From Torpedo marmorata (lineage: Eukaryota): DNA of 64,000 nt. Under the pieces are notes generated by a model. That model had not been told where the DNA came from. It saw nothing but the letters and a program-made list of their open reading frames with translations, and ran no database searches. The translations under genes and the position numbers were made by a program. The stretch's first letter is position 1; each line of letters begins with the position of its first letter. This document shows positions 10,788 through 64,000 of the stretch, in pieces. The stretch is taken from NCBI GenBank assembly GCA_977017645.1, contig OZ360223.1, forward strand, positions 233,678,001 to 233,742,000, written 5' to 3'.

Positions 10788-12570
10788 TGTTTCATCTTAC
10801 CTTGACTCCATCTTTTCTCCCCTGGTCCAATCCCTCCCCACCTACATCCGCGACACCTCACATGCCCTCCATCTCCTCAATGGCTTCAGATTCCCTGAAC
10901 CGGACCGCATCATCTTCACCATGGATGTCCAATCCCTTTATACCTCTATCCCCCACACAGAAGGTCTGAAAGCACTTCGCTTCTTCCTGGATCAAAGACC
11001 TGATCAGTCACCCTCTATCACCACCCTCCTCTGCCTGGCAGAACTTGTCCTCACTCTCAATAACTTCTCCTTTAACTCATCCCACTTCCTCCAAATCAAA
11101 AGAGCAGCCATGGGTACCCGTTTGTGGGCTTTGTGGAGCAATCCATGCTGCAAGCCTACACAGGCAAGACCCCTCATCTCTTCCTCCGTTATATCGACGA
11201 CTACATCGGGGCTGCCTCATGCACCCGCGATGAGCTTGTCAACTTCATCCACTTCGCAACCAACTTCCACCCCGATCTCAAACTCACCTGGTCCATCTCT
11301 GATAACACTCTCCCCTTCCTGGATCTCTCTGTCTCTATCTCGGGAGACAAGCTTTCCACCGACATTTACTACAAACCCTGCAACTCCCACAACTATCTGG
11401 ACTACACTTCCTCACACCCTGTCCCCTGCAAGGATTCCATCCCCTTCTCTCAATTTCTCCGTCTCCGCCACACTGTTCCCAAAATGAGGTCTTCCAGTAC
11501 AGATCTTCTGAAATGTCTGCCTTCTTCCACAAACGTGGCTTCCCCTCCACCACCATCAACTCAGCCCTCACCCGCATCTCCTCCATTTCCCGCTCATCTG
11601 CCCTGGCCCCCTCTGCCCCCAGACGCAACAAACATAGAATCCCCCTCATCCTCACCTACCACCCCACCAGCCTCCGCATCCAACACATTATCCACCGGAA
11701 TTTCCGGCACTTACTACAGGATCCCACCACCAGACATATTTTTCCTTCTCCTCCCCTCTCGGCCTTCCGCAGGGATTGCTCCCTCCACGATTCCCTCGTG
11801 CTCTCATCCCTCCCCACCTACTCGTACCCCCGACACCTTCCCCTGTGCCCGCAGGAGGTGCAACACCTGCGCCCACACCTCCCCCCTCACCACGGTCTGG
11901 GGCCTCAAACAGGCCTTTCAAGTGAAGCTACACTTCTCGTACATCCAGATAACTTATTTACTGCATCCGGTGCTCCCTTTGTGGCTTTCTCTACATCGGA
12001 GAGACCGGTCGTAGATTGGGAGATCGCTTTGCTGAGCACCTCCTCTCCGTCCACAACAACAGCGACCTCCCAGTAGCCAGCCATTTCAATTCCGAGTCAC
12101 ACTCCCATGTCTGTCCATGGCCTTATGTACTATCCCACCCAGACGACCTGCAAATTGGAGCAACAACATCTCATTTTCCGTCTGGGCACTCTCCAGCCAG
12201 ATGGCATTAACATTGACTTTTCTGCTTTCCACTAAACCTGCTTGTCTTTTCCTTCCCCTCCCCCCTCACCTGTCCTTCCTGTTTTTTTCCACCTACCCAG
12301 CCATCCCTCCTCCCCCTCTTTGCTGCTGTCCCCTCCCTCCTTTCTCCACCTATCATCTCCTGCCTTTGCCACCCCCCTCCCCCCACCTCACTCTTTTGTT
12401 CGGACGCCTGCCGGCATTTTCTCATACTTTGATGAAGGGCTCAAGCCTGAAACGTCGGTTATGTATTTCTACCTTTGCTACATAAAAGACACTGTTTGAC
12501 CTGCTGAGTTTCTCCAGCATTTGTGTTTTTTACTTCAACCACGGTGTCTACAGATTTTCGTGTTTTACTT
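10788..12570 (+). mobile_element. Penelope-like retroelement (Neptune type), 5'-truncated and frameshifted
   Basis: RT motifs MDVQSLYTSI, AMG, RYIDD, FLD, YYKP. Cys linker CxxxxCxxC. GIY-YIG endonuclease YCIRC..C...YIGETGRRLGDRFAEH. Hammerhead-bearing 3' end. Confidence 0.92.
12429..12456 (+). ncRNA. Minimal hammerhead ribozyme-like motif in the Penelope 3' end
   Basis: TTGATGAAGGGCTCAAGCCTGAAACGTC. Confidence 0.6.
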
Positions 12571-18123: not shown

Positions 18124-18801
18124 CTACGGAGAGATAAAAAGCAGAGTTAACATTTCAGGTCAATAACTAGTTCAAGCCACCAACTTGCCATGTTAAAGGT
18201 TTCTTTCTCTGTGGATTTTGCCTGACACAAGTTTTGCCACATTTTGTGTTTTTCAGATTTCCAGCATTCACAACTATTCACGTTTTAGAGCAATGATTTA
18301 CATTGCAAAAGAAAATTAGAAACCTAATTGGGATGAAAGTCAAATTGATACAAATATGTCATAACTGTTGAATTGGACAAATAAATCTTTTAGGAAATTT
18401 GAGACCAAATATGATCAGTTCATTCTCAAAGTTAACAGCAATGCTTTCAATATTTAATTCTACAATGAAATACAAAAAAAAATCATGTTAAATTTGTGAA
18501 ATGAACACATTTAGTGAGTTTTATTTCTCATGTACCTTGATTAAGTTCAGAGCAAGTTTGAATTACAAAAGATCTATTCAGTTGCAAGATTACTGCAGTC
18601 TTTCGTTAAATTGAATCATTAAATCAAAATGGTTAAGTCAAAATTCAGAGAGGAATTAATGAGTTAAGGCACAAAAATTGGGAACACCACAAGAATCATT
18701 CAGTAATAGCACAGATGATTTTTCTTTAAAAATATTTCTTTGTGCTGCTGAAGTTTGACCTACTACAATTATCAATATTTGAAATCAAAATTATATAGTC
18801 C

Positions 18802-19159
18802 TGTAGCGTGTCGCTACGGTTATAGCTCTGCGCGTCGAGTTGGTCGTCGCTCTGGTTCTGGAGCTCAGGAGAGAGATACACTCCCTCCGAGCGTCAAGAC
18901 AGAACTGCCTATTCTGCCATCGGCTCTGCCTTTTATAGGCAGGGCCGAGCCTGACTGCCACGTCATGGATGGGGCATGGCCTAAGGCGCGACGCCCAGGA
19001 TTGGTCGGGCCACGATCCAATCTTAGGGATTGGCCCGTTCCCTCGTTGCCGTTGTGGCCTATGGGAACGGGCCGTCCGAATCACGTGCCGCCTGCGCGAT
19101 CGCCGTGTTCGTACACGGCTCTCTGTATCGGCCTGCGGAGTAGGTCGCGGGCCGCTACA
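18802..19159 (-). repeat. 3' LTR (358 bp), preceded by polypurine tract 19163-19174
   Basis: Direct repeat of the 5' LTR. GGGAGGGGGGGG lies just upstream on the minus strand. Confidence 0.95.
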
Positions 19160-19164
19160 CGACC

Positions 19165-22100
19165 CCCCCCTCCCAGAATCGGCGATCTGTGCGGTGGCCT
19201 TGTCCTTGGGAGGCCACCCCCTGCGGCGTGGATAGGGTGATTGATTGGTTGGCCAGGGTCCAGGTGTGCAGGCTTGAGTCGGTCAACCGCAACCGTTTCC
19301 TCCCTGCCGCCAACATCTATAACACAAGTGGAGCAGTTGTGTTTGATAACCCGGTACGGCCCTTCGTACGGTCGTTGGAGTGGTGGCCGATGCGCCCCTC
19401 GCCTTATAAGCACATGCCTGCAGTCCTTCAAGTTCTTTGGAACATAAGTTTTAGGCTGGCCGTGCGCCCTGGGCTGTGCCGGGGCCAACGTACCCAGTCG
19501 TTGCCGCAGGCGAGTCAGGGCTACCGCTGGAGTGTCCTCTGTGTTCCGGGAACTCACCCGGGATGACCAGGGGTGCACCATAGACCATTTCCGCTGCAGA
19601 CACGTCGAAATTGTCTTTGGGCGCGGTGTGGATGCCCAGGAGAACCCAAGGCAGTTCATCAGCCCAGTGCGGTCCCGTGAGCCGAGCCATGAGGGCCGCC
19701 TTGAGGTGCCTGTGGAACCTCTCCACCAACCCGTTGGCCTGAGGATGGTATGCCGTAGTATGATGGAGTTGTGTTCCCAGGGTGTTGGCCAAGGCCGCCC
19801 ATAGGCTGGAGGTGAACTGGGCACCTCTGTCCGACGTCAGGTGCTCTGGGACTCCAAACCGCGCCACCCAGGTGCTTAGCAAGGCCCTGGCACACGACTC
19901 TGCAGATGTTTCCACAAGCGGGACTGCTTCCGGCCACCTAGTCATACGATCCATCATGGTCAATAGGTATCGAGCACCTCTTGACACTGGCAGTGGGCCT
20001 ACAATGTCCACATGCACATGGCTGAACCTCCGTCGTGCCGGCTCAAATGACTGGAGAGGGGCTTTAATGTGCGTCTGCACCTTTGATGCCTGGCAATGCG
20101 TGCAGGTCTTGGCCCACTGACTAACCTCCTTACGGAGACCATGCCATACGAAACGGCTGGCCACCATCTTAACCGTGGTTCTGATGGCTAGGTGCGCCAG
20201 GTTGTAGATCGTGTCAAAAACCCGTTTTCTCCATGCTGCGGGTATGACGGGTCTAGGCGTACCAGTCGAGGTGTCGCACAAAAGCGTCTGCTTTTCTGTG
20301 CCGATGCGAACGTCCTCCAGACGGAGACCGGTTACTGCCGTCCGGTATGCAGGTATGCTGAGGTCTGCTTGTTGTGCCTCAGCCAGGGCTGCATAGTCGG
20401 TGCCTGGGGTGAGGGCGTGTATTTCAAGTATGGCTGGCCGGGATAGCGCGTCAGCCACCACATTCGACTTCCCGGCAATGTGTGCTATATCCGTGGAAAG
20501 CTCGGTACGTAGGACAGGTGCCTTTGCTGCCTGGCTGACCATGGGTCCGACACTTTGCCGAAAGCAAAGGTGAACGGCTTGTGGTCCGTGAATATTTTGA
20601 ACCTCCTGCCCTCCAGGAAGTATCGGAAATGTTGGACCGCCAGGTATAGAGCTAAGAGCTCCCGATCAAAGGCACTGTACTTGAGCTCTGGTGGGCGGAG
20701 GTGCTTGCTGAAAAAGGCCAGCGACTGCCATTGTCCAGCGATCAGCCACTCAAGTACTCCCCCGACCGCTGTGTTGGAGGCGTCCACAGTGAGGGCTGTC
20801 GGGGCATCTGTCCGAGGATGCACCAGAAGGGTAGCGTTTGCCAGGGCGTCTTTGGCGGCTTGGAAAGCCTCTGATGCCTCCTGTATCCATTCGATTTCCT
20901 TCTTTGGGCCTGCCATGAGGGAGAATAAGGGCCGCATGATTCCAGCTGCTGCCGGTATGAAACGATGATAAAAGTTAATCATACCGACAAACTCCTGCAG
21001 GCCCTTTATCGTTGCGGGCTTTGAAAATGATCGGATGGCCTCCACCTTTTCGGGCAGTGGCCTGGCCCCATCCCTGCTAATACGGTGCCCCAGGAAATCG
21101 ATGGACTCCCGCCCGAACTGGCACTTGGCAGGGTTGATTATCAGCCCGAACTCCTTCAGGCGGGTGCACACCTGTCTTATATGGATGGCATGTTCAGCAC
21201 GATTGTGGCTGGCTCTCAGTATGTCATCCAAATAAATGAAGGTGAACTTGAGATCCCGGACCACCGTATCCATCAACCTCTGGAAGGTTTGAGCTGCTTT
21301 CTTCAGGCCGAATGGCATCCTCAGAAACTCAAACAGGCCCAAGTGGGTGATAATGGCGGTCTTGGCGATGTCTTCCGTCTGGACTGGGATCTGGTGATAG
21401 CCCTTAACGAGGTCCACCTTTGAGAATATCCGTGCCCCCTGTAGGTTAGCGGTGAAGTCCTGGACGTGGGGCACCGGATATCTGTCCGGTGTGGTGGCCT
21501 CGTTGAGACGGCGGTAATCCCCGCATGGTCTCCAGCCTCCTGCTGCCTTGGGCACCATGTGGAGTGGGGAGGCCCAGGGGCTGTCAGAACGCCGCACGAT
21601 GCCCAGCTCTTCCATCTTCCGGAACTCTTCTTTGGCGAGATTGAGCTTCACAGGAGGAAGGTGGCGCGCCCTGGCGTGATGGGGAGGTCCTGTCGTCACG
21701 ATATGATGCTGAACTCTATGCCTAGGTTCCGCCGAGGAAAAATGTGGCGTCGTGATGGCAGGGAATTCGGCCCTAATCCGTACCATCTCATTGTCCGTAG
21801 TTGCTACCGAGTGCAGACGGGGGGCAGTGAGCTCAGTCCCACTCAGGGAAAGAGTCTGAAAAGTTGTGGCATGCTCTAATCTTCGCTCCTTAATGTCCAC
21901 TTGTAGGGGATTGGCCCTAAGGAAATCCGCACCCAGGAGCAGCTGCCGCACCGCCGCCAGCGTGAACTCCCAGGTAAAATGATTATCCCCAAAACGGAGG
22001 GGGATGGTGCAGGTGCCAAAAGTGCGAATATCTGAATTATTGGCCGCTCTCAGGCCCTGTCCAACCCTGCTGCTGCGGATGTCAGAACTGGAAGGGGGAA

Positions 22101-22203
22101 AAACACTGACTTCAGCCCCAGTATCGACCAGGAACCGGCGGCCCGACAGGATGACCTGTACATGGAGTAGGTTGTGATGCAGGCCGACCACTGCAACCAT
22201 CAA
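19165..22203 (-). pseudogene. pol: Gypsy pol (protease, RT, RNase H, integrase), with frameshifts near 20500 and 19550
   Basis: LVDTGA, DLVKGYHQIP, YLDD, VDAS...TDHKP, HHCC-like zinc finger (first His apparently replaced by Tyr), HVDIVG/SDRG/VERFH (DDE) and PYEGPY. Confidence 0.92.
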
Positions 22204-22895
22204 CGGTGGCCGGCGCTAGCGTTTCCCTGAAACGCACAGGGGGAACGGCATCGACGGGCCTCGGAACCCCACCGCTGGTGGTAGAAACAGTACTCCTGAC
22301 CGGTGGGCTCCATCGGTTGGCGGGTCAATTGTTCGGGGAGCCGCCTACTCGTTCGCAGTGGACGAGACGTGGATACTTGCTCCATTATCGCACAGTCATC
22401 TTTCTTCGCCGCCCAGAGCACGTCCGCTCGGGCAGCTACCTTCCTGGGGTCGCTGAAATCCACTTCTGCAAGCAACAGCCGGATGTCCTCTGGCAATCGC
22501 TCCAGGAAAACCTGCTCGAACAGCAGGCAAGGTCTGTGGTCATCTGATAAGGCAAGCATGTCGCTCATGAGGGCGGAAGGGGCCCTGTCCCCCAAGCCGT
22601 CCACATGCAACAATCGGGCTGCCCGCTCTCGCCTCGAGAGCCCGAAAGTGCAGGACAACAGCTCCTTGATGGCCACATACCTCCCCTGCTCTGGAGGACA
22701 CCGCAGGAAGTCCACAATCCTGGCCTCTATCTCCTGCTCGAGGGCGCTTACCACGTGGTAATAGCGGTCGGTGTCGTCAGAGATCCTTCGAAAAGCAAAC
22801 TGTGCTTCGGCTTGCTCGAACCATACCAGCGGCTGCGATGTCCAGAAGCTCGGCAGCTTCAACAAAACCACGTTGATTGAAGCTTGTTCCATCTT
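22200..22895 (-). CDS. gag: Gypsy gag
   Basis: KLPSFW...WFEQAEAQF capsid start and C-terminal CFYHQRWG..A.RC..PC motif. Confidence 0.9.
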   Translation of the reverse strand, partial: KMEQASINVVLLKLPSFWTSQPLVWFEQAEAQFAFRRISDDTDRYYHVVSALEQEIEARIVDFLRCPPEQGRYVAIKELLSCTFGLSRRERAARLLHVDGLGDRAPSALMSDMLALSDDHRPCLLFEQVFLERLPEDIRLLLAEVDFSDPRKVAARADVLWAAKKDDCAIMEQVSTSRPLRTSRRLPEQLTRQPMEPTGQEYCFYHQRWGSEARRCRSPCAFQGNASAGHR

Positions 22896-22920
22896 CGGGT
22901 CCAAATCGCCGTTTGGACCA

Positions 22921-22933
22921 GTCGGGGTCACCA
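22921..22933 (-). promoter_or_regulatory. Primer-binding site complementary to the tRNA-Trp 3' end
   Basis: TGGTGACCCCGAC one base after the 5' LTR. Confidence 0.85.
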
Positions 22934-22934
22934 C

Positions 22935-23291
22935 TGTAGCGCGTCGCTACAGTTATAGCTCTGCGCATCGAGTTGGTCGTCACTCTGGTTCTGGAGCTCA
23001 GGAGAGAGATACACTCCCTCCGAGCATCAAGACAGAACTGCCTATTCTGCCGTCGGCTCTGCCTTTTATAGGCGGGCCGAGCCTGACTGCCGCGTCACGG
23101 ATGGGGCGTGGCCTAAGGCGCGACGCCCAGGATTGGTCGGGCCACGATCCATCCTTAGGGATTGGCCAGTTCCCTCATTGCTGTTGTGGCCTATGGGAAC
23201 GGGTCGTCCGAATCACGTGCCGCCTGCTTGATCGCCGTGTTCGTACACGGCTCTCTGTATCGGCCTGCGGAGTAGGTCGCGGGCCACTACA
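22935..23291 (-). repeat. 5' LTR (357 bp)
   Basis: About 95% identical to 18802-19159, with TATAAAA on the minus strand. Confidence 0.95.
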
Positions 23292-57777: not shown

Positions 57778-59623
57778 CATCCATTCTCAGCGGGGGCTAA
57801 ACCGCCCCCCTGGGGGTCACGGACTGAAATCCTTAGTAAGGGGGGGCCCAATGTGTAGAGGGTAGCATGGAAATTAAACGGATTAAGCATTTTTTGGGGG
57901 AAGGAAAGGGCTTTGCTGTATAGTTGCCAAACAATGCAAGATTTTTTCCAAGGTTGAAGGCATTTGGAGACAACATAGATAAATGTGGAAAATTAACAAT
58001 GTTTTCAGTGTGTTCCTTGCTTTGACATGATTGGTTTTGACTGACATGGAACCAGCTTTGGCTATGAATTGCCTTCCATGTAGTTTTCTGCTTTTGTTCC
58101 ATTGCCTTCAATTCAAGGAAACAAGCATGCAGGCTGAAAGGTTTTGCTCCATATTTCATGTCCGCAAGCACCCTCATTTTGCTTCAAGTTTTTGTGATGA
58201 GTCGTGAACACTGTTCCCTCTAAGCTGTGTGTGTGCGTGCGCACACACGTTTCGCAACCAGCGCACAAAGGAAATTAATGTGCGCAAAAAAGGTTAGTTA
58301 CCTAAAATAATGTAGTAATTAATAATTATACTTATTGAAAATAATCTCTTAGCTAACTGTTTCTGTTAACTAGTTAGTCGGTTTTTCAAATTCCACATCA
58401 CTAATTTACGTCACCTCACCTTTCCTGTTCCGGTTTGTACAACTGCAACACGGCTGCAGCCATGTTTGGCGGACAGTGTTCATATCGTAAAGTTTACGAA
58501 GATCTGTTTCAAATTCTGTAGATAGCTTACTGAGTTTTTATTGAAAAAAATATTGATTCACTATGTCGAATTCAAAAGAAGCGAAGGGCATGAAGCGCAA
58601 AAGAACTGCAAGTTTCAAGTTTACATTTGCACAAGCATTCAGTGTGCACATACTTTTGTCACAGGAAAAAAATTTGCACAACATAAGATTTTTGCGCACA
58701 CTGACTACTAAAAATTAGAGGGAACATTGGTCGTGAATGTATGTCTCCTTCTGCTATCTTTTATTGAAGGTATGCATTATACATTATTTTCCATAAAATT
58801 TATGCCGACTTTTGAGTTAACACTTGTAGGAAGAGCTTTCGTTCTGTAACAGTTAATTTTTGTTACTTTCAGAAATAATCTTACCCGTGAACTCCTTGGC
58901 AAAAAAGTGTCAGCAGTATTCGGTGGAATACTTATCATATGGTTTCATTACGTCTCCACAAAACCCTTCTCTGCCCATAGGTTTGATTTGTTTGAATACA
59001 TTTTCATACAAAAGCATGAGGCCAAGAAAGCTGAAACAACATTTGGAGACCGTATATAAAGAGAAGAAAGACAAACCCTTTGATTACTTTAAAACCCTTG
59101 GAGATAATTTCAGGAGAAGGCCAATGCTCAAACAGATGATTACGGACACATAACAGAAATTAGAAAAGGGTCGTCTTGCTTCATTCAAGATGAGCGAATT
59201 GATTGCTAAAAGAGGAAATGCTCGTAACATCGCTGAGTCACTAATTTTGCCTTCAGTGTCCATAATAATATCTGACGTCATGAATTTAAATGTCATAGAA
59301 ACTATTCAGGCAATTCCTTTGAGTAATTTCAGTTTCTAGAAGAATTGATGAGATGGTAAGGAACATTAAAAAACAATTAGTCATTTCATTACAATCCAAA
59401 AAAAATTCTTTACAATTAGACATATCCACTCTGCAAGAAAATAAAGCTTTTCTTCATGGCTTATGCCAGATTCTGGAATGGAAACAAGCTGATGGAAGAG
59501 ATGTTTTTTTCCACAAAGATTAAAACAGATACTAAGAGACTGACTATTTTCGAATTTAAGAATTACATAAACAAGAACAGTATTCCTTTCAAGAACATAT
59601 TTCCCTGTGCAACTGATGGTGGC
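57778..59623 (+). mobile_element. hAT Buster/Charlie-type transposon, 5' part with decayed transposase
   Basis: Left TIR CATCCATTCTCA. BED-finger remnant QYSVEYLSYGF...P..LIC..F....MRP.KL..HL and catalytic CATDG. Cut by an LTR at 59624. Confidence 0.85.
58209..58729. mobile_element. hAT Tip100-type non-autonomous element
   Basis: TIRs CA(C/A)TGTTCCCTCTAA, perfect 8-bp TSD GTCGTGAA (58201-58208, 58730-58737) and GCGCACA subterminal repeats. Confidence 0.9.
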
Positions 59624-61427
59624 TGTAATGGATCTGTGGTAATATTAATATTTAGGTTAATGTTAAACTATATTTCCTATAAATATGTTTTAGTTAATGT
59701 AATGGGTTTGGAACAGGGTTACACACACCTATACAATACATTCAGATGAGGTCATCTTTCGGAGTCGTGATGTTTGCAAGACAGAGTTATGAAGTTCACA
59801 TGGTTTCCAAGAATTGAGACTGATCTCATTGATGATGTAATGTCACATGATTTTGTGGAATATATTGTCAAATCCAGACCTTTTGAGTCAGTTCAGAAGT
59901 CGAGACCCTTGAAAAAGGATAGAGTGGAATTACAGTAACCGGAACAGGTGCTGTTATGTGTTACTCCTAATCAAAGGGGAATACAGAAATAAGTGGATTT
60001 GGAAAGGGAGACCACTTCCCGACTGCTCTTTTGAAAATAAAGGGTGCAGCCTCATCGTGGAAAGAAACTCCATAACTCTTAAGAAAATAAGAGGGAGTTG
60101 AAGATCACCAGTGTGAGAGTTTAAGAAGAAATCTCTTCCTGGAAAACAGCTCAACAAGATTTGAGAGTTTGGAAAGTCTAAGGACTGAATCAGTGTTAAC
60201 AAATACTTCATTACTGCTTTTAAGCAACAATTCAAAAGAACTTGATGCTTCGCATTTGCTTCGTAATCACTTCTGAACTACAATTTAACAGACCTTCAGG
60301 TTCAACAAGACTTTAAAATACTGGACTTTTCACATTGACTTTCCAGAATTGAGTTTTAAACTGTAATGGTTTGAAACCTGACCACACACGCATTTACACA
60401 ATTACATTCGCGCATAGTGGGGTTAAGCTTAGAGTTAAGTAAGTTTAGAGTTAAGAAAGAAATGTTATGTGATTAATAGTTTAATAAAAAGTATTATTTT
60501 GAATTTCCCACTGTCTGGTGCATCTTCCATTGCTGTTCCTGTGTTAGTGCTAGCAAGGGCTTGTTAGTTCATAACATAAATTGGGGGCTCGTGTCCGGAA
60601 TTGAACCAAAAATCTGAACTTCATGAGAGTTAATTTGATCGATTAATATTCGATTTGTTTGGTTAAAAATCTTTTTGAAAGCCAATTAAAAGGCTTATAG
60701 TGTGTGTGGATAAACAGCAGCAATGGATATTAAAACATTTTTGGGTTCACCAAACTTTGCAGATTTGCAGAAGGCAAAAAAGGAGGAGTTGTTGCTTATC
60801 GCAAAAGAGTTGAAACTTACGGAGATAAAAGCGTGGATGAGGAAAATTGAGATCCAAAGGATTATGACTGACTACTATGTGAAAGAAGATATTTTTGAAG
60901 AGGTGTTAAAACAACTTTCTGAGAGTAAATCTCTTGAGCAGCAGTTAAAGCTGAGAAAGATGGAGTTAGAAAAAATTAGAATTGAGTGTGAGAGAGAGAA
61001 AGACAATAGACAGCATGAGCTAGAGATAGAAAAACTTAAATTAGAGGGAGAGAGAGAACAGAGGCAGTTTGAGCTAGAATTAGGGAAGCTTAGACAAAGG
61101 AGACAAGAGATACAAAGGGAGGTTGAGAGAAAAAGGGAAGATTGGAAAAATTCTGTTACGTTTCCAGATGGTTATGTTTTAAATCCAGATTTTAAATTAA
61201 AGCCAAGTGAAACTCTTCAAAAGGGACAAAATTCTGTTACATTTGCAGATAAGAATCACAATGTGAAATTTGTGCCCAACAAATCTATTCAAGAAGGTGA
61301 TTTGAAATACCCAACTAAGTTTGGAACTAAATGAGGAATTATTGCCAGCGAAAGTGCTGTGCAACCTGATTTAACAGCTGTGTCTAAAAGCTTTGCCAGT
61401 GGAAAAACTGGACAGATTGATTTAAAG

Positions 61428-63338
61428 CAGTGGTTCCCAAACTTTTTCGGGCTGCTGCCCCCTTGGCTCCCAGGCCACATCCCTAGTGCACCACCTCCCA
61501 CCACCACCCCCCCCCCACACACACCCCCCCCACACACACACACATACAATGAACACACACCTCTTTCTTGGTATTAGGTCTACTGCAAATTTAAAACAAC
61601 AACTATTGTGTCTCGCCCTTGTAACTTGTAGATAGATACACATCACCTTTTTAATTGGTGTGCCGTGCCTGCTTGTCGCAATACGGGTGGTAGGTACTGA
61701 TTGTATGAACCCACGAATTAACATCGGTATTGTTTCACAAACTTGTATCAGAACATTACTGGTTTGCAGCAGGTGTATGTGTGTCTCCTGTTATGTATTG
61801 GTGTTGTGTGTAAATAAAGTTCACCGCTTTGTACTGCCACGTAGCGAGGATTGTCACTATTTGAACCCTTCGAATTTGTTTTCCCAACACAGATTGGAGC
61901 TACGAGAATGGTTCAAGGAAAAACAACCGGGCAATTGGGTGGGAGCGATGTTCTGGCAAAAGGCTAAAATGAAGGGCCCCACTTATGCAGGGGACAGAGT
62001 ATCGTGGTCGATCAAAGATACTGCTGGGTTCGGCAGTCTGGCCAGCGTGCTGGAGGAACATCGCAAGCCGATGGAATGGTCAGATAGCGTGGACTTGTAA
62101 AGGGAGGACATTGGCCACCATCTTGTGTCCCTCCTCAAATAATCGGAGTTCACGGGATGTAAGGGGAGCCATAGAGGGATCTTTTGGCTGCTGACAGTCT
62201 TCCTGCGGTACCGACACAAAGCCTTGAGACGAAAGGAACACGAGATCACCCAGTTAAAATTTGAGGTGTAAACGCTGCTGCAAGAGTTGCTCCCCGATGG
62301 GGAAACCTGGGCCAGAAAGAATAAAGGCACGCAGCTAGCGTGCAGGCTGGTCAATGTATGGTAGTTTGAGCTGTGGCCACATGGCTGCTCCAGATCTGGG
62401 ACGCGGTTGGTACCAACATGAGCTTACCCCATCGGAAGCAGGTATCTGGGTGGGTTATCCAGTCAGGAAGCCATGAACAACGGCCTGCGGATGCCGTCTG
62501 AGGCCATGGAGGGTAACACATCCTTATGGATCCGGGAAGAAGCTGCTGTCCGGGTGACGGGCCGTTCCTTGCTGCAGTGGGATTTACAGTCGCGGGCAAA
62601 GCCAGAGTGGCATACGGTAGAGGATGTGATTAGGGCCCTTAGTGACTGGGCTCTAGTTACTGGACTATATGTGGGCGCCCACGGCCGTGAGACCCCTGAG
62701 GGCTCCGGATTACCACTGCAGTGGCGGGACACCTGGTTACCACCATCCTTCCCTATCTGAAGGGGATTGTGCTTTCTTTAATCTGTCCAGCGGTTGGTAA
62801 GATAGCGAGGGAGACTGCTGGAAGGGCTGGAGTACTTGGAGAGGGCCGTGCGTGTTCGGGCCCGGAATGTAGAAAAGAATGTAAGGCTAACTAAGGACTG
62901 GATCAACGCGATATTCGCCTTCGCCCTGTATGCAATCTGGAAGGAGCATTGTGCAGGGAAGTTGAGCGATGGAATGGGATCCGTCCACAAAGGGCACAGG
63001 TTGGGCCATCCCCCATCGGCACCTCCTCCAGGCCACGCCGAGGCCCTGCATGCATTCATCGATGCCCTGCAGGAAGCAGTGGTGGAGCTGCAGTGTCAGA
63101 AGGGGTGGACCAGTGTATGGCGACGGTCCACTCCGCTGCAGTAGGATTGTGGCCAGATCTCCCGGCAGTTCACCCGTCATTTTCCGGCCGGGAATTTCGA
63201 GGCCCAATATCCCAGACCACGTAACCAAGATACAAACAAACGTTCGGACCGCCCCCTTTTTCCTCAACGCCCCCTGACTACCTCCTTTTTCCTCACCGCC
63301 CCCATGGATCTTTCCACCGCCCACTTTGGGAATCACTA
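61428..63338. mobile_element. 1.9-kb hAT (Charlie-type) element inserted in the Gypsy gag and carrying non-transposase cargo
   Basis: TIRs CAGTGGTTCCCAAA / TTTGGGAATCACTA, TSD ATTTAAAG/ATTTAAAA (61420-61427, 63339-63346) and CGCCCCC subterminal repeats. Confidence 0.85.
61900..63100 (+). pseudogene. gag: Class III (ERV-L/Fv1-like) retroviral gag remnant
   Basis: Collinear motifs across frameshifts: LASVLEEHRKPMEW, IFWLL...coiled coil, VATWLLQIWD, YLGGLS, SLWIREEAAVR, WHTVEDVIRAL. Confidence 0.65.
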
Positions 63339-64000
63339 ATTTAAAACAACCGGCACAGAAACAGGCAGGCTGTCAGATAAAACAAACAGGCTATGATGAC
63401 TCACCAGTCACTTTGAACGTTTCTTTGTTAGATCAGAAATCTGATTTTAAACCTGAAAGTAATGACTTGTTGTGGTATCGAGAAGAGTTTATACAGAAGC
63501 CAGAAAAGGAAAAACTTTCTGGTCAATTTTGTAATTATTGTAAGAAACCTGGTCATGTGGTAGCAAATTGCTTTTTCTTGAAGAGGAAAAGGGAACAGGA
63601 AACCATACCAGAGGCTTGTATTCAAAGAGGTGAAACACAGGGAAGTAAAAAAGGGTTTGCTGGTAAAATTAGGAAGGAATTTAAATATTTTGTTTCAGAG
63701 GGTAAAGTTTCACTAGAGGAAGGATCACCACAGGTGACAATACAAATACTCAGAGATACTGGGGCAGCTCAGTCACTTGTGTTGGCCAGTGTTTTGGAGT
63801 TTAGTGATAAGACTGCCACAGGTGAAATAAATTTGATTAAAGGTTATGGAAGTGATTCGGAGGCGATACCTTTGCACAAAATAATGTTGAAATCTGAATT
63901 AGTTAATGGACCTGTTAAAATAGGGATCAGATCAAGTTTACCAGTGGATGGTATTTCATTGTTATTAGGGAATGATTTGGCAGAGGGTAAAGTTGTCCCT

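What the first reader, a model, noticed from the sequence alone, without database searches (positions are those of the whole stretch)
61428..63338. A hAT DNA transposon whose interior is an ERV-L/Fv1-like retroviral gag
Seen: hAT TIRs and an 8-bp TSD (1 mismatch) bound 1911 bp, and the host Gypsy gag resumes after it. The interior has no transposase. It holds a GC-richer 1.2-kb stretch translating, over stops and frameshifts, to LEEHRKPMEW, FWLL plus coiled coil, VATWLLQIWD (62373), YLGGLSSQ, SLWIREEAAVR and EWHTVEDVIRAL. Established: class III ERV-L Gag, the source of the restriction factor Fv1, has these blocks in this order (WLLRxWD, LGxLS, SLW, WxxxExGIxxL). No flanking LTR pair or pol is visible. 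Inference: this is a Pack-type hAT that captured a retroviral capsid gene and moved it, and it records an ERV-L-like lineage in a probable cartilaginous fish. A cut-and-paste vehicle spreading capsid genes would be raw material for Fv1-like domestication.
Basis: partly seen in the sequence, partly recalled or inferred. Interest (0 to 1): 0.8.

Follow-up and report, generated by a model that had tools for sequence, protein, structure and literature searches.

The report
Cut-and-paste transposon spreading dead retrovirus piece
A cut-and-paste DNA transposon carries the broken front end of an old retrovirus in place of its own enzyme gene and has pasted it into several hundred places in this genome; it likely picked the piece up already dead, so it is an unusual fossil carrier, not a source of antiviral genes.

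Summary
61428-63338 is a non-autonomous Buster-type hAT (14-bp TIRs, 8-bp nnnTAnnn TSD). Its transposase interior is replaced by 1606 bp of a class III endogenous retrovirus: LTR 3' end, a PBS matching the Ser-type one of relatives, gag and the start of pro. It is a family: 383 exact hits of one cargo 24-mer (about 600-800 copies), and 38 of 44 two-ended copies have their own TSD. Full-length parent hATs and cargo-free siblings share its arms. The Gag matches proteins annotated Fv1-like and free-standing class III proviruses in this genome (about 40-50% aa). These resemble XtERV-S more than ERV-L proper: no dUTPase was seen. The donor provirus was not found. The Fv1-raw-material idea fails. 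Three stops, three frameshifts and a ~355-nt deletion are shared by nearly all of 79 copies, and there is no selection signal, so the cargo was dead before it spread. The arms match the sibling majority, which favours capture of an old provirus by a young hAT. The same hAT also packed a histone H1 5' end. About a third of copies hold a second Pack-hAT carrying a Greatwall kinase exon. Published animal multicopy Pack-TIRs are rare and low-copy.

The parts
61420..61427 (.). left target-site duplication ATTTAAAG (TA at positions 4-5)
   Evidence: family pattern
61428..61605 (.). left hAT arm (178 bp; TIR 61428-61441); the end that lies 3' of the parent transposase
   Evidence: shared with cargo-free siblings and full-length parents L295, L297 up to position 178
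61606..61891 (+). LTR-derived segment, likely the 3' part of a 5' LTR; poly(A) signal AATAAA 61813-18; ends in CACA
   Evidence: 61770-61935 aligns to the LTR end, PBS and leader of relatives, score 55-90 against shuffle maxima 35-48 in 7 of 9 tested; 61606-61775 gave no significant match in 6 of 6
61841..61848 (.). site GTAGCGAG; in about a third of other copies it is duplicated around a nested Pack-hAT carrying a Greatwall exon (absent from this copy)
61895..61912 (+). primer-binding site, decayed; colinear with TGGCGCTGCGAGCAGGGT of relatives (tRNA-Ser assignment recalled)
61948..63144 (+). broken class III gag: start MFW at 61948; stops at 62098, 62140, 62269; about 355 nt missing before 62373 relative to relatives; three frameshifts in the capsid region; terminal TAG 63142
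62373..62830 (+). capsid-like block (WLLQIWD, LGGLS, SLW, WHTVEDV, LPYLKGIV), split over two frames
   Evidence: 42-58% identity to the open gag of L133; fold of a natural open relative weakly capsid-like
63145..63211 (+). first codons of pro after the gag stop
   Evidence: tblastx to the same place in L133, L142, L150
63212..63338 (.). right hAT arm (127 bp; TIR 63325-63338) with GC-rich subterminal repeats
   Evidence: shared with siblings and parents from position 1785
63339..63346 (.). right target-site duplication ATTTAAAA
60714..64000 (+). host LTR-retrotransposon gag-pro, interrupted by the element
   Evidence: ORFs; frame check; contigs of other copies skip the insertion

Best explanation
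This is a non-autonomous Buster-type hAT transposon whose interior is a broken 5' piece of a class III endogenous retrovirus, likely copied in once from an already decayed provirus during repair of a transposon break and then spread to several hundred sites, presumably by the parent family's transposase acting in trans. Shown: the arms belong to a parent hAT that carries a Buster-type transposase; the ERV piece replaces about 2.5-2.8 kb of the parent's interior; copies have their own TSDs; the lesions are shared; drift since has been neutral. Inferred: template switching (abortive gap repair or fork switching) as the capture step, trans-mobilisation, and no host function.
For: Own TSDs at 38 of 44 two-ended loci, all 38 with TA at positions 4-5. 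That is the Buster consensus (PMC3517528, passages). Parents L295 (2810 bp) and L297 (3066 bp) share element positions 1-178 and 1785-1911 and carry a decayed transposase of FAM200/GTF2IRD2/SCAND3 type (score 0.96; Dimer_Tnp_hAT only E 0.008). Left-arm majority letters of 52 composite and 28 cargo-free copies differ at 0 of 120 columns. The cargo's stops sit in 77, 78 and 75 of 79 copies, and the deletion has the same size in 74 of 79. The three frameshifts are in 73 of 75, 74 of 78 and 78 of 79 copies. So the vehicle was young and the cargo old. The same hAT also packed a histone H1 5' end. pN/pS is 0.85 against 0.83 and 0.90 in control frames.
Against: The donor provirus was not found, so the junctions cannot be checked against a parent and microhomology is unproven. 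The first 170 bp of the cargo match no relative's LTR. The LTR segment starts TGTG and ends CACA, so it could be a whole short LTR, which would fit insertion. The arm comparison covers only about 190 columns, and the right arm had 6 sibling copies and one clear difference. No intact transposase was seen among the 5 parent loci fetched.
Confidence: 0.72

Rival explanations
1. A provirus inserted into a full-length hAT copy and decayed there. Deletions on both sides removed the transposase and the rest of the provirus, and the remnant was mobilised later.
For: The segment 61607-61891 has TGTG...CACA ends like a complete LTR. Nested insertions are common in this genome, including a second hAT inserted into this family. 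Siblings show many internal deletions (401-1485 bp in 16 of 30).
Against: It needs an insertion plus two deletions. Arms that sat through the cargo's decay should have drifted too, yet they match the sibling majority at 120 of 120 left-arm columns. Relatives' LTRs are about 785 bp; in three intact-looking ones a TATA-like box lies 460-540 bp before the end. No intermediate was seen among the loci held.
Confidence: 0.2
2. The captured template was an RNA or cDNA copy of a defective, still transcribed provirus, not chromosomal DNA.
For: The cargo seems to begin downstream of where relatives have their TATA box and runs LTR-PBS-gag as a transcript would. Deleted non-autonomous proviruses are common among the relatives.
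Against: The start does not match a predicted transcript start. The Greatwall cargo runs past a likely exon end (splice site recalled) and the H1 cargo includes upstream promoter sequence, which points to DNA-level capture by hATs in this genome.
Confidence: 0.05
3. The family spreads capsid-coding sequence that the host uses, or could readily use, as an Fv1-like restriction factor.
For: The Gag is of the same broad kind as proteins annotated Fv1-like. Hundreds of copies exist, and only 79 were examined in full.
Against: The frame from the start codon is 50 aa in most copies and 81 aa at most; the longest stop-free sense stretch in any of 79 copies is 173 aa; the capsid block is split by shared frameshifts; no selection signal. 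All 101 scored protein candidates gave matches with stops or in fragments. Open gag frames exist in free-standing relatives, which would be better raw material.
Confidence: 0.03

Closest known systems
Animal Pack-TIRs / Pack-hATs (Tan et al. 2021, PMC8277862; passages and section 7 read)
   Same: TIR ends around a foreign, GC-richer interior; multicopy spread shown by distinct TSDs; hAT is the commonest vehicle; template switching proposed for multicopy cases.
   Different: That survey found only 4 multicopy cases among its reference-genome Pack-TIRs, and its example has 3 copies; this family has hundreds. Its cargo is non-TE host sequence with a known parent; here the cargo is retroviral and the parent is unfound. 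'shark' and 'retrovir' do not occur in its main text.
Buster-family hAT non-autonomous derivatives (Charlie/MER-type MITEs; Mar, PMC3517528, passages read)
   Same: Short TIRs, 8-bp nnnTAnnn TSD, no coding capacity, a related transposase-bearing parent.
   Different: The interior is foreign DNA, not a deleted piece of the parent, and this derivative is about as numerous as the cargo-free siblings sharing its left arm (383 against 291 exact hits of 24- and 25-mers).
XtERV-S, class III ERV of Xenopus (PMC8278194; passages, sections 7 and 11 read)
   Same: Ser PBS, ERV-L-type gag, gag and pol separated by an in-frame stop. Free-standing relatives here show an env-like start with a CWIC motif (2 of 10). 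Their RT is 61% identical to a Xenopus pol (P0022; that this is XtERV-S is my inference).
   Different: XtERV-S is intact and has a dUTPase after integrase; none was seen in relatives here. The cargo itself lacks pol, env and the 3' LTR.
ERV-L / Fv1
   Same: Gag capsid blocks in the same order; linked through P0006 to a lizard protein annotated 'Friend virus susceptibility protein 1-like' (66% to P0006; direct match to the cargo E 1e-9).
   Different: The PBS matches the Ser-type one of relatives (Leu for ERV-L is recalled), and no dUTPase was seen. Fv1 is an intact, selected single gene (recalled); this is a neutral, broken, multicopy passenger. No mammalian ERV-L or Fv1 sequence was compared directly.

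Membership tests
hAT, Buster group | short TIRs and 8-bp TSD | tested here: met
   (38 of 44 with 0-1 mismatch)
hAT, Buster group | nnnTAnnn target consensus | tested here: met
   38 of 38; consensus from PMC3517528
hAT, Buster group | Buster-clade transposase in a parent with the same ends | tested here: met
   L295, L297; atlas FAM200/GTF2IRD2/SCAND3-like 0.96; Pfam support weak; no tree built
Pack-TIR (multicopy) | foreign interior moved repeatedly with distinct TSDs | tested here: met
   34 different TSD sequences among 38 loci
Pack-TIR (multicopy) | interior copied from an identifiable parental locus outside the transposon | tested here: inconclusive
   no donor among 90 gag-hit stretches (some overlapping) and 60 integrase-linked stretches; best long matches 65-76% nt; searches score only top candidates
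Pack-TIR (multicopy) | interior is non-TE host sequence (definition in PMC8277862 Fig. 1 legend) | tested here: not met
   the cargo is an ERV fragment; it works like a Pack-TIR, and the H1 and Greatwall siblings fit this feature better
class III ERV | Gag homologous to ERV-L-type Gag | tested here: met
   profile hit P0006 E 4.7e-4 in 1.84e9 proteins; hhalign probability 98.7; tblastx to own-genome proviruses E down to 7e-44
class III ERV | RT groups with spuma-like retroviruses | tested here: inconclusive
   the cargo has no RT; a relative's RT has foamy Pol as best solved match (E 5e-18, against 2.5e-15 for the next best) and 46-70% identity to RTs from vertebrate and unnamed records; no tree with named references
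class III ERV | LTR end, PBS, gag, stop, pro order | tested here: met
class III ERV | retroviral capsid fold | tested here: inconclusive
   model of a natural relative, pLDDT 84.7; VIA Z 5.7 MOAP1 CA-like (rmsd 3.1, 82 aligned), Z 5.2 foamy capsid (rmsd 5.2, 145 aligned), tied with unrelated helical proteins; Foldseek none at E 0.001
ERV-L proper | dUTPase after integrase | tested here: not met
   tested on relatives only: 0 of 142 scored integrase matches ran into the query's dUTPase; 0 of 10 loci by tblastn; the donor itself is unknown
ERV-L proper | Leu tRNA primer (recalled) | tested here: not met
   the PBS matches the relatives' TGGCGCTGCGAGCAGGGT, which I recall as Ser-type; no host tRNA gene was compared
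Fv1-like domesticated gag | open frame under purifying selection | tested here: not met
Fv1-like domesticated gag | expression and restriction activity | not testable with these tools
   no run on record as RNA was listed

The most novel reading that the evidence does not exclude
This genome runs a plant-style Pack-hAT system at high copy number. hAT ends repeatedly grab GC-rich 5' ends of genes and proviruses (an ERV front end, a histone H1 promoter and start, a Greatwall first exon), nest inside each other and amplify them up to hundreds of times. The ERV-laden family is the main surviving record of a class III retrovirus that has otherwise vanished from the genome.
Probability: 0.45. Interest if true: 0.68.

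Novelty: new variant of a known kind. Interest (0 to 1): 0.5.

Why it matters
It shows a retroviral fragment changing vehicle: amplified by cut-and-paste, not reverse transcription. ERV copy counts and ages taken from gag hits in such genomes would then mislead, because these copies date the hAT burst and not an infection. It raises the copy number of an animal Pack-TIR well above the cases in the one survey read, and adds a Pack nested in a Pack. It documents abundant XtERV-S/ERV-L-like class III proviruses in a probable cartilaginous fish. It does not offer a route to Fv1-like genes, since the cargo was already broken.

Tried and rejected
Pfam, PDB sequence search and the word-indexed protein search found nothing for the stop-read-through cargo. 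P0005 is a repeat-driven false hit; P0003 and P0004 are other copies of this family. The MLVIN_C search returned epsilon-like ERVs by my reading, with no link to the cargo tested. Two exact patterns for a solo or 3' LTR outside the hAT gave 0 hits; they need exact matches and do not show absence. No donor turned up among 90 gag stretches and 60 integrase-linked stretches. The idea that the window copy is a deletion of the long form was rejected: the extra piece has its own TIRs, an 8-bp TSD and free-standing copies, and both forms have the same column majority (39 against 28 copies). The search for the parental Greatwall gene returned 88 hits; the 12 inspected were transposon-borne or unresolved, so the gene was not located. 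No RNA holder was listed, which says nothing about expression. Foldseek gave no significant capsid match, and the viral fold library did not answer. No RT tree was built, for lack of named reference sequences. Literature searches and earlier-finding look-ups showed no report of a hAT carrying retroviral gag. Repbase, Dfam and subscription journals were not searchable, and no supplements were read.

Full report
Observation. The window lies in a 6.2-Gb genome. At 61428-63338 there are 14-bp TIRs (12 of 14 paired) and an 8-bp duplication with one mismatch. The flanking gag-like frame of the host retrotransposon is consistent across the insertion, and contigs from a public run skip it.

It is a family. 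A DNA search gave 3152 first-look candidates; of the 40 scored, 17 others were near full length at 91-93%. An exact 24-mer at the gag start occurs 383 times (control 0), and an exact 19-mer at the right end 428 times. These words are exact in 31 and 34 of 56 distinct high-scoring loci, which gives roughly 600-800 copies. My notes say 700-1000; that was before the second calibration. Of 30 position-ordered cargo hits, 29 show a hAT arm and the last shows the end of the nested element; none is a free provirus. Of 30 right ends, 26 are preceded by cargo. Among 44 loci with both ends in view, 27 have a perfect TSD, 11 have one mismatch and 6 have more. The 38 good ones give 34 different sequences, all with TA at positions 4-5, the Buster consensus (PMC3517528, passages). 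Copies differ by 6.1% pairwise and by 3.3% from the column majority (2.1% without CpG; 79 copies). That means one burst. It would date to about 10-15 My at the mammalian rate, or 95-150 My at the shark rate assumed in PMC4422223 (first part of the text read), so the age is uncertain tenfold. Runs under seven coded organism labels cover the element, and listed contigs from four of them bridge the right junction. If the labels are distinct species, the family predates their split.

The vehicle. A pattern for the left arm with a non-cargo continuation has 291 hits. None of 30 sampled matches the cargo; 16 show both ends and span 401-1485 bp. Two full-length parents (L295, L297) share element positions 1-178 and 1785-1911, have TSDs, and carry a decayed transposase of FAM200/GTF2IRD2/SCAND3 type. 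Pfam support is weak and the PDB gave none. The cargo (61606-63211) therefore replaces the parent's interior.

The cargo. Direct searches failed. A profile of 14 copies hit an intact 521-aa protein, P0006, at E 4.7e-4. Its relatives include a lizard 'Friend virus susceptibility protein 1-like' and newt and monitor-lizard proteins. P0006 found 6374 candidates in this genome. These are free-standing LTR elements, three of 20 with paired ~785-bp LTRs and some with pro, RT and RNase H. The cargo is colinear with them at about 40-50% aa (E to 7e-44; hhalign 98.7): LTR 3' end with AATAAA, PBS, leader, MFW start, capsid blocks, stop, start of pro. A relative's RT is closest to foamy Pol among solved structures and is 70% identical to a stingray protein. 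Of 60 stretches upstream of class III-like integrases, 33 carry a cargo-like gag. None of 142 integrase matches runs into a dUTPase, and 2 of 10 are followed by an env-like start with CWIC. This fits an XtERV-S-like class III lineage (PMC8278194; passages, sections 7 and 11) better than ERV-L proper. A model of a natural relative's capsid region is confident. Its fold matches are weak: retroelement capsids take four of the top five rows and only the foamy capsid spans both lobes, but Z is at most 5.7 and Foldseek found nothing significant. The donor family itself was not found.

Dead before it spread. Stops at 62098, 62140 and 62269 occur in 77, 78 and 75 of 79 copies, and the shortened spacing before the capsid block in 74 of 79. 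The three frameshifts occur in 73 of 75, 74 of 78 and 78 of 79 scorable copies. The frame from the start codon is 50 aa in 59 of 78 copies and never exceeds 81 aa; the longest stop-free sense stretch is 173 aa. pN/pS is 0.85, like the two control frames (0.83, 0.90). By comparison with relatives, the LTR promoter is probably not included (inference). The Fv1-raw-material reading is therefore not supported.

Mechanism. The left-arm majority is the same in 52 composite and 28 cargo-free copies at all 120 columns compared; the right arm shows one clear difference on 6 siblings. A heavily decayed cargo between undecayed arms is what capture of an old provirus by an active hAT predicts. Insertion followed by long decay in place would have aged the arms too. 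I put capture by template switching at about 0.7 and insertion plus erosion at about 0.2; the TGTG...CACA ends of the LTR segment and the missing donor keep the latter alive. Spread is by cut-and-paste (TSDs shown); the transposase source is inferred.

A wider pattern. The same hAT carries a histone H1 promoter and 5' coding piece in at least 4 of 30 siblings (14 read by eye; H1 E 1e-7). In 11 of 30 sampled composite copies a second TIR element sits at 61841-48 with an 8-bp TSD. It carries an antisense exon matching Greatwall kinase (E 3e-9; 565 candidates) and has free-standing copies with their own TSDs. Plain and nested forms share one majority sequence, so the nesting happened during the burst. 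[quoted passage not shown]

Novelty and verdict. Five literature searches and two look-ups of earlier findings showed no hAT family carrying retroviral gag. Repbase, Dfam and closed journals were not searchable, so the family may exist as an unannotated repeat consensus. It is a new variant of a known kind: a real, high-copy, Pack-like hAT with retroviral cargo, of interest to transposon and paleovirology specialists, with no sign of function. Interest 0.5.

Noticed in passing
L024, L027, L030 (inside the element at the site equal to window 61841-48); free-standing L253-L255: A second Pack-hAT of about 1-1.3 kb (TIR CAGGGGCGTAGC, 8-bp TSD) carrying a Greatwall/MASTL-like first exon; 565 first-look candidates; nested in about a third of the composite copies. 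The parental gene was not located.
   Followed up: partly
L266:1948-2175, L277, L288, L290: A subfamily of the same Buster hAT carrying a linker histone H1-like promoter (TATA) and 5' coding piece, multicopy; L266 and L290 have perfect TSDs.
   Followed up: partly
L250 (1466 bp), L268: Further siblings with the same ends and other interiors. L250 holds a different repeat; L268 holds a 5S rRNA-like piece (label recalled).
   Followed up: no
L133-L222, L300-L369: Thousands of free-standing class III proviruses in several families (Ser-type PBS, 785-bp LTRs in one family, some open gag frames, many pol deletions, an env-like start with CWIC in some, no dUTPase seen).
   Followed up: partly
L078 and one search list: A young, high-copy ERV family with many identical-length 1372-aa open pol frames; epsilon-like by my reading, untested.
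   Followed up: no
window 58857-59749: A decayed Charlie/Buster-like transposase relic just upstream of the host retrotransposon (motif likeness to the parent transposase by eye; no Pfam hit).
   Followed up: no
window 18801-23291: A near-complete LTR retrotransposon on the minus strand with 95% identical ~360-bp LTRs, a DUF7041 gag, RT and RNase H.
   Followed up: no
window 36418-36953, 2635-2925, 12286-12570, 40719-41098: Palindromic MITE-like elements; the first three are related to each other.
   Followed up: no
L106 / L233: One composite copy has an internal inversion of about 900 bp of the cargo.
   Followed up: no
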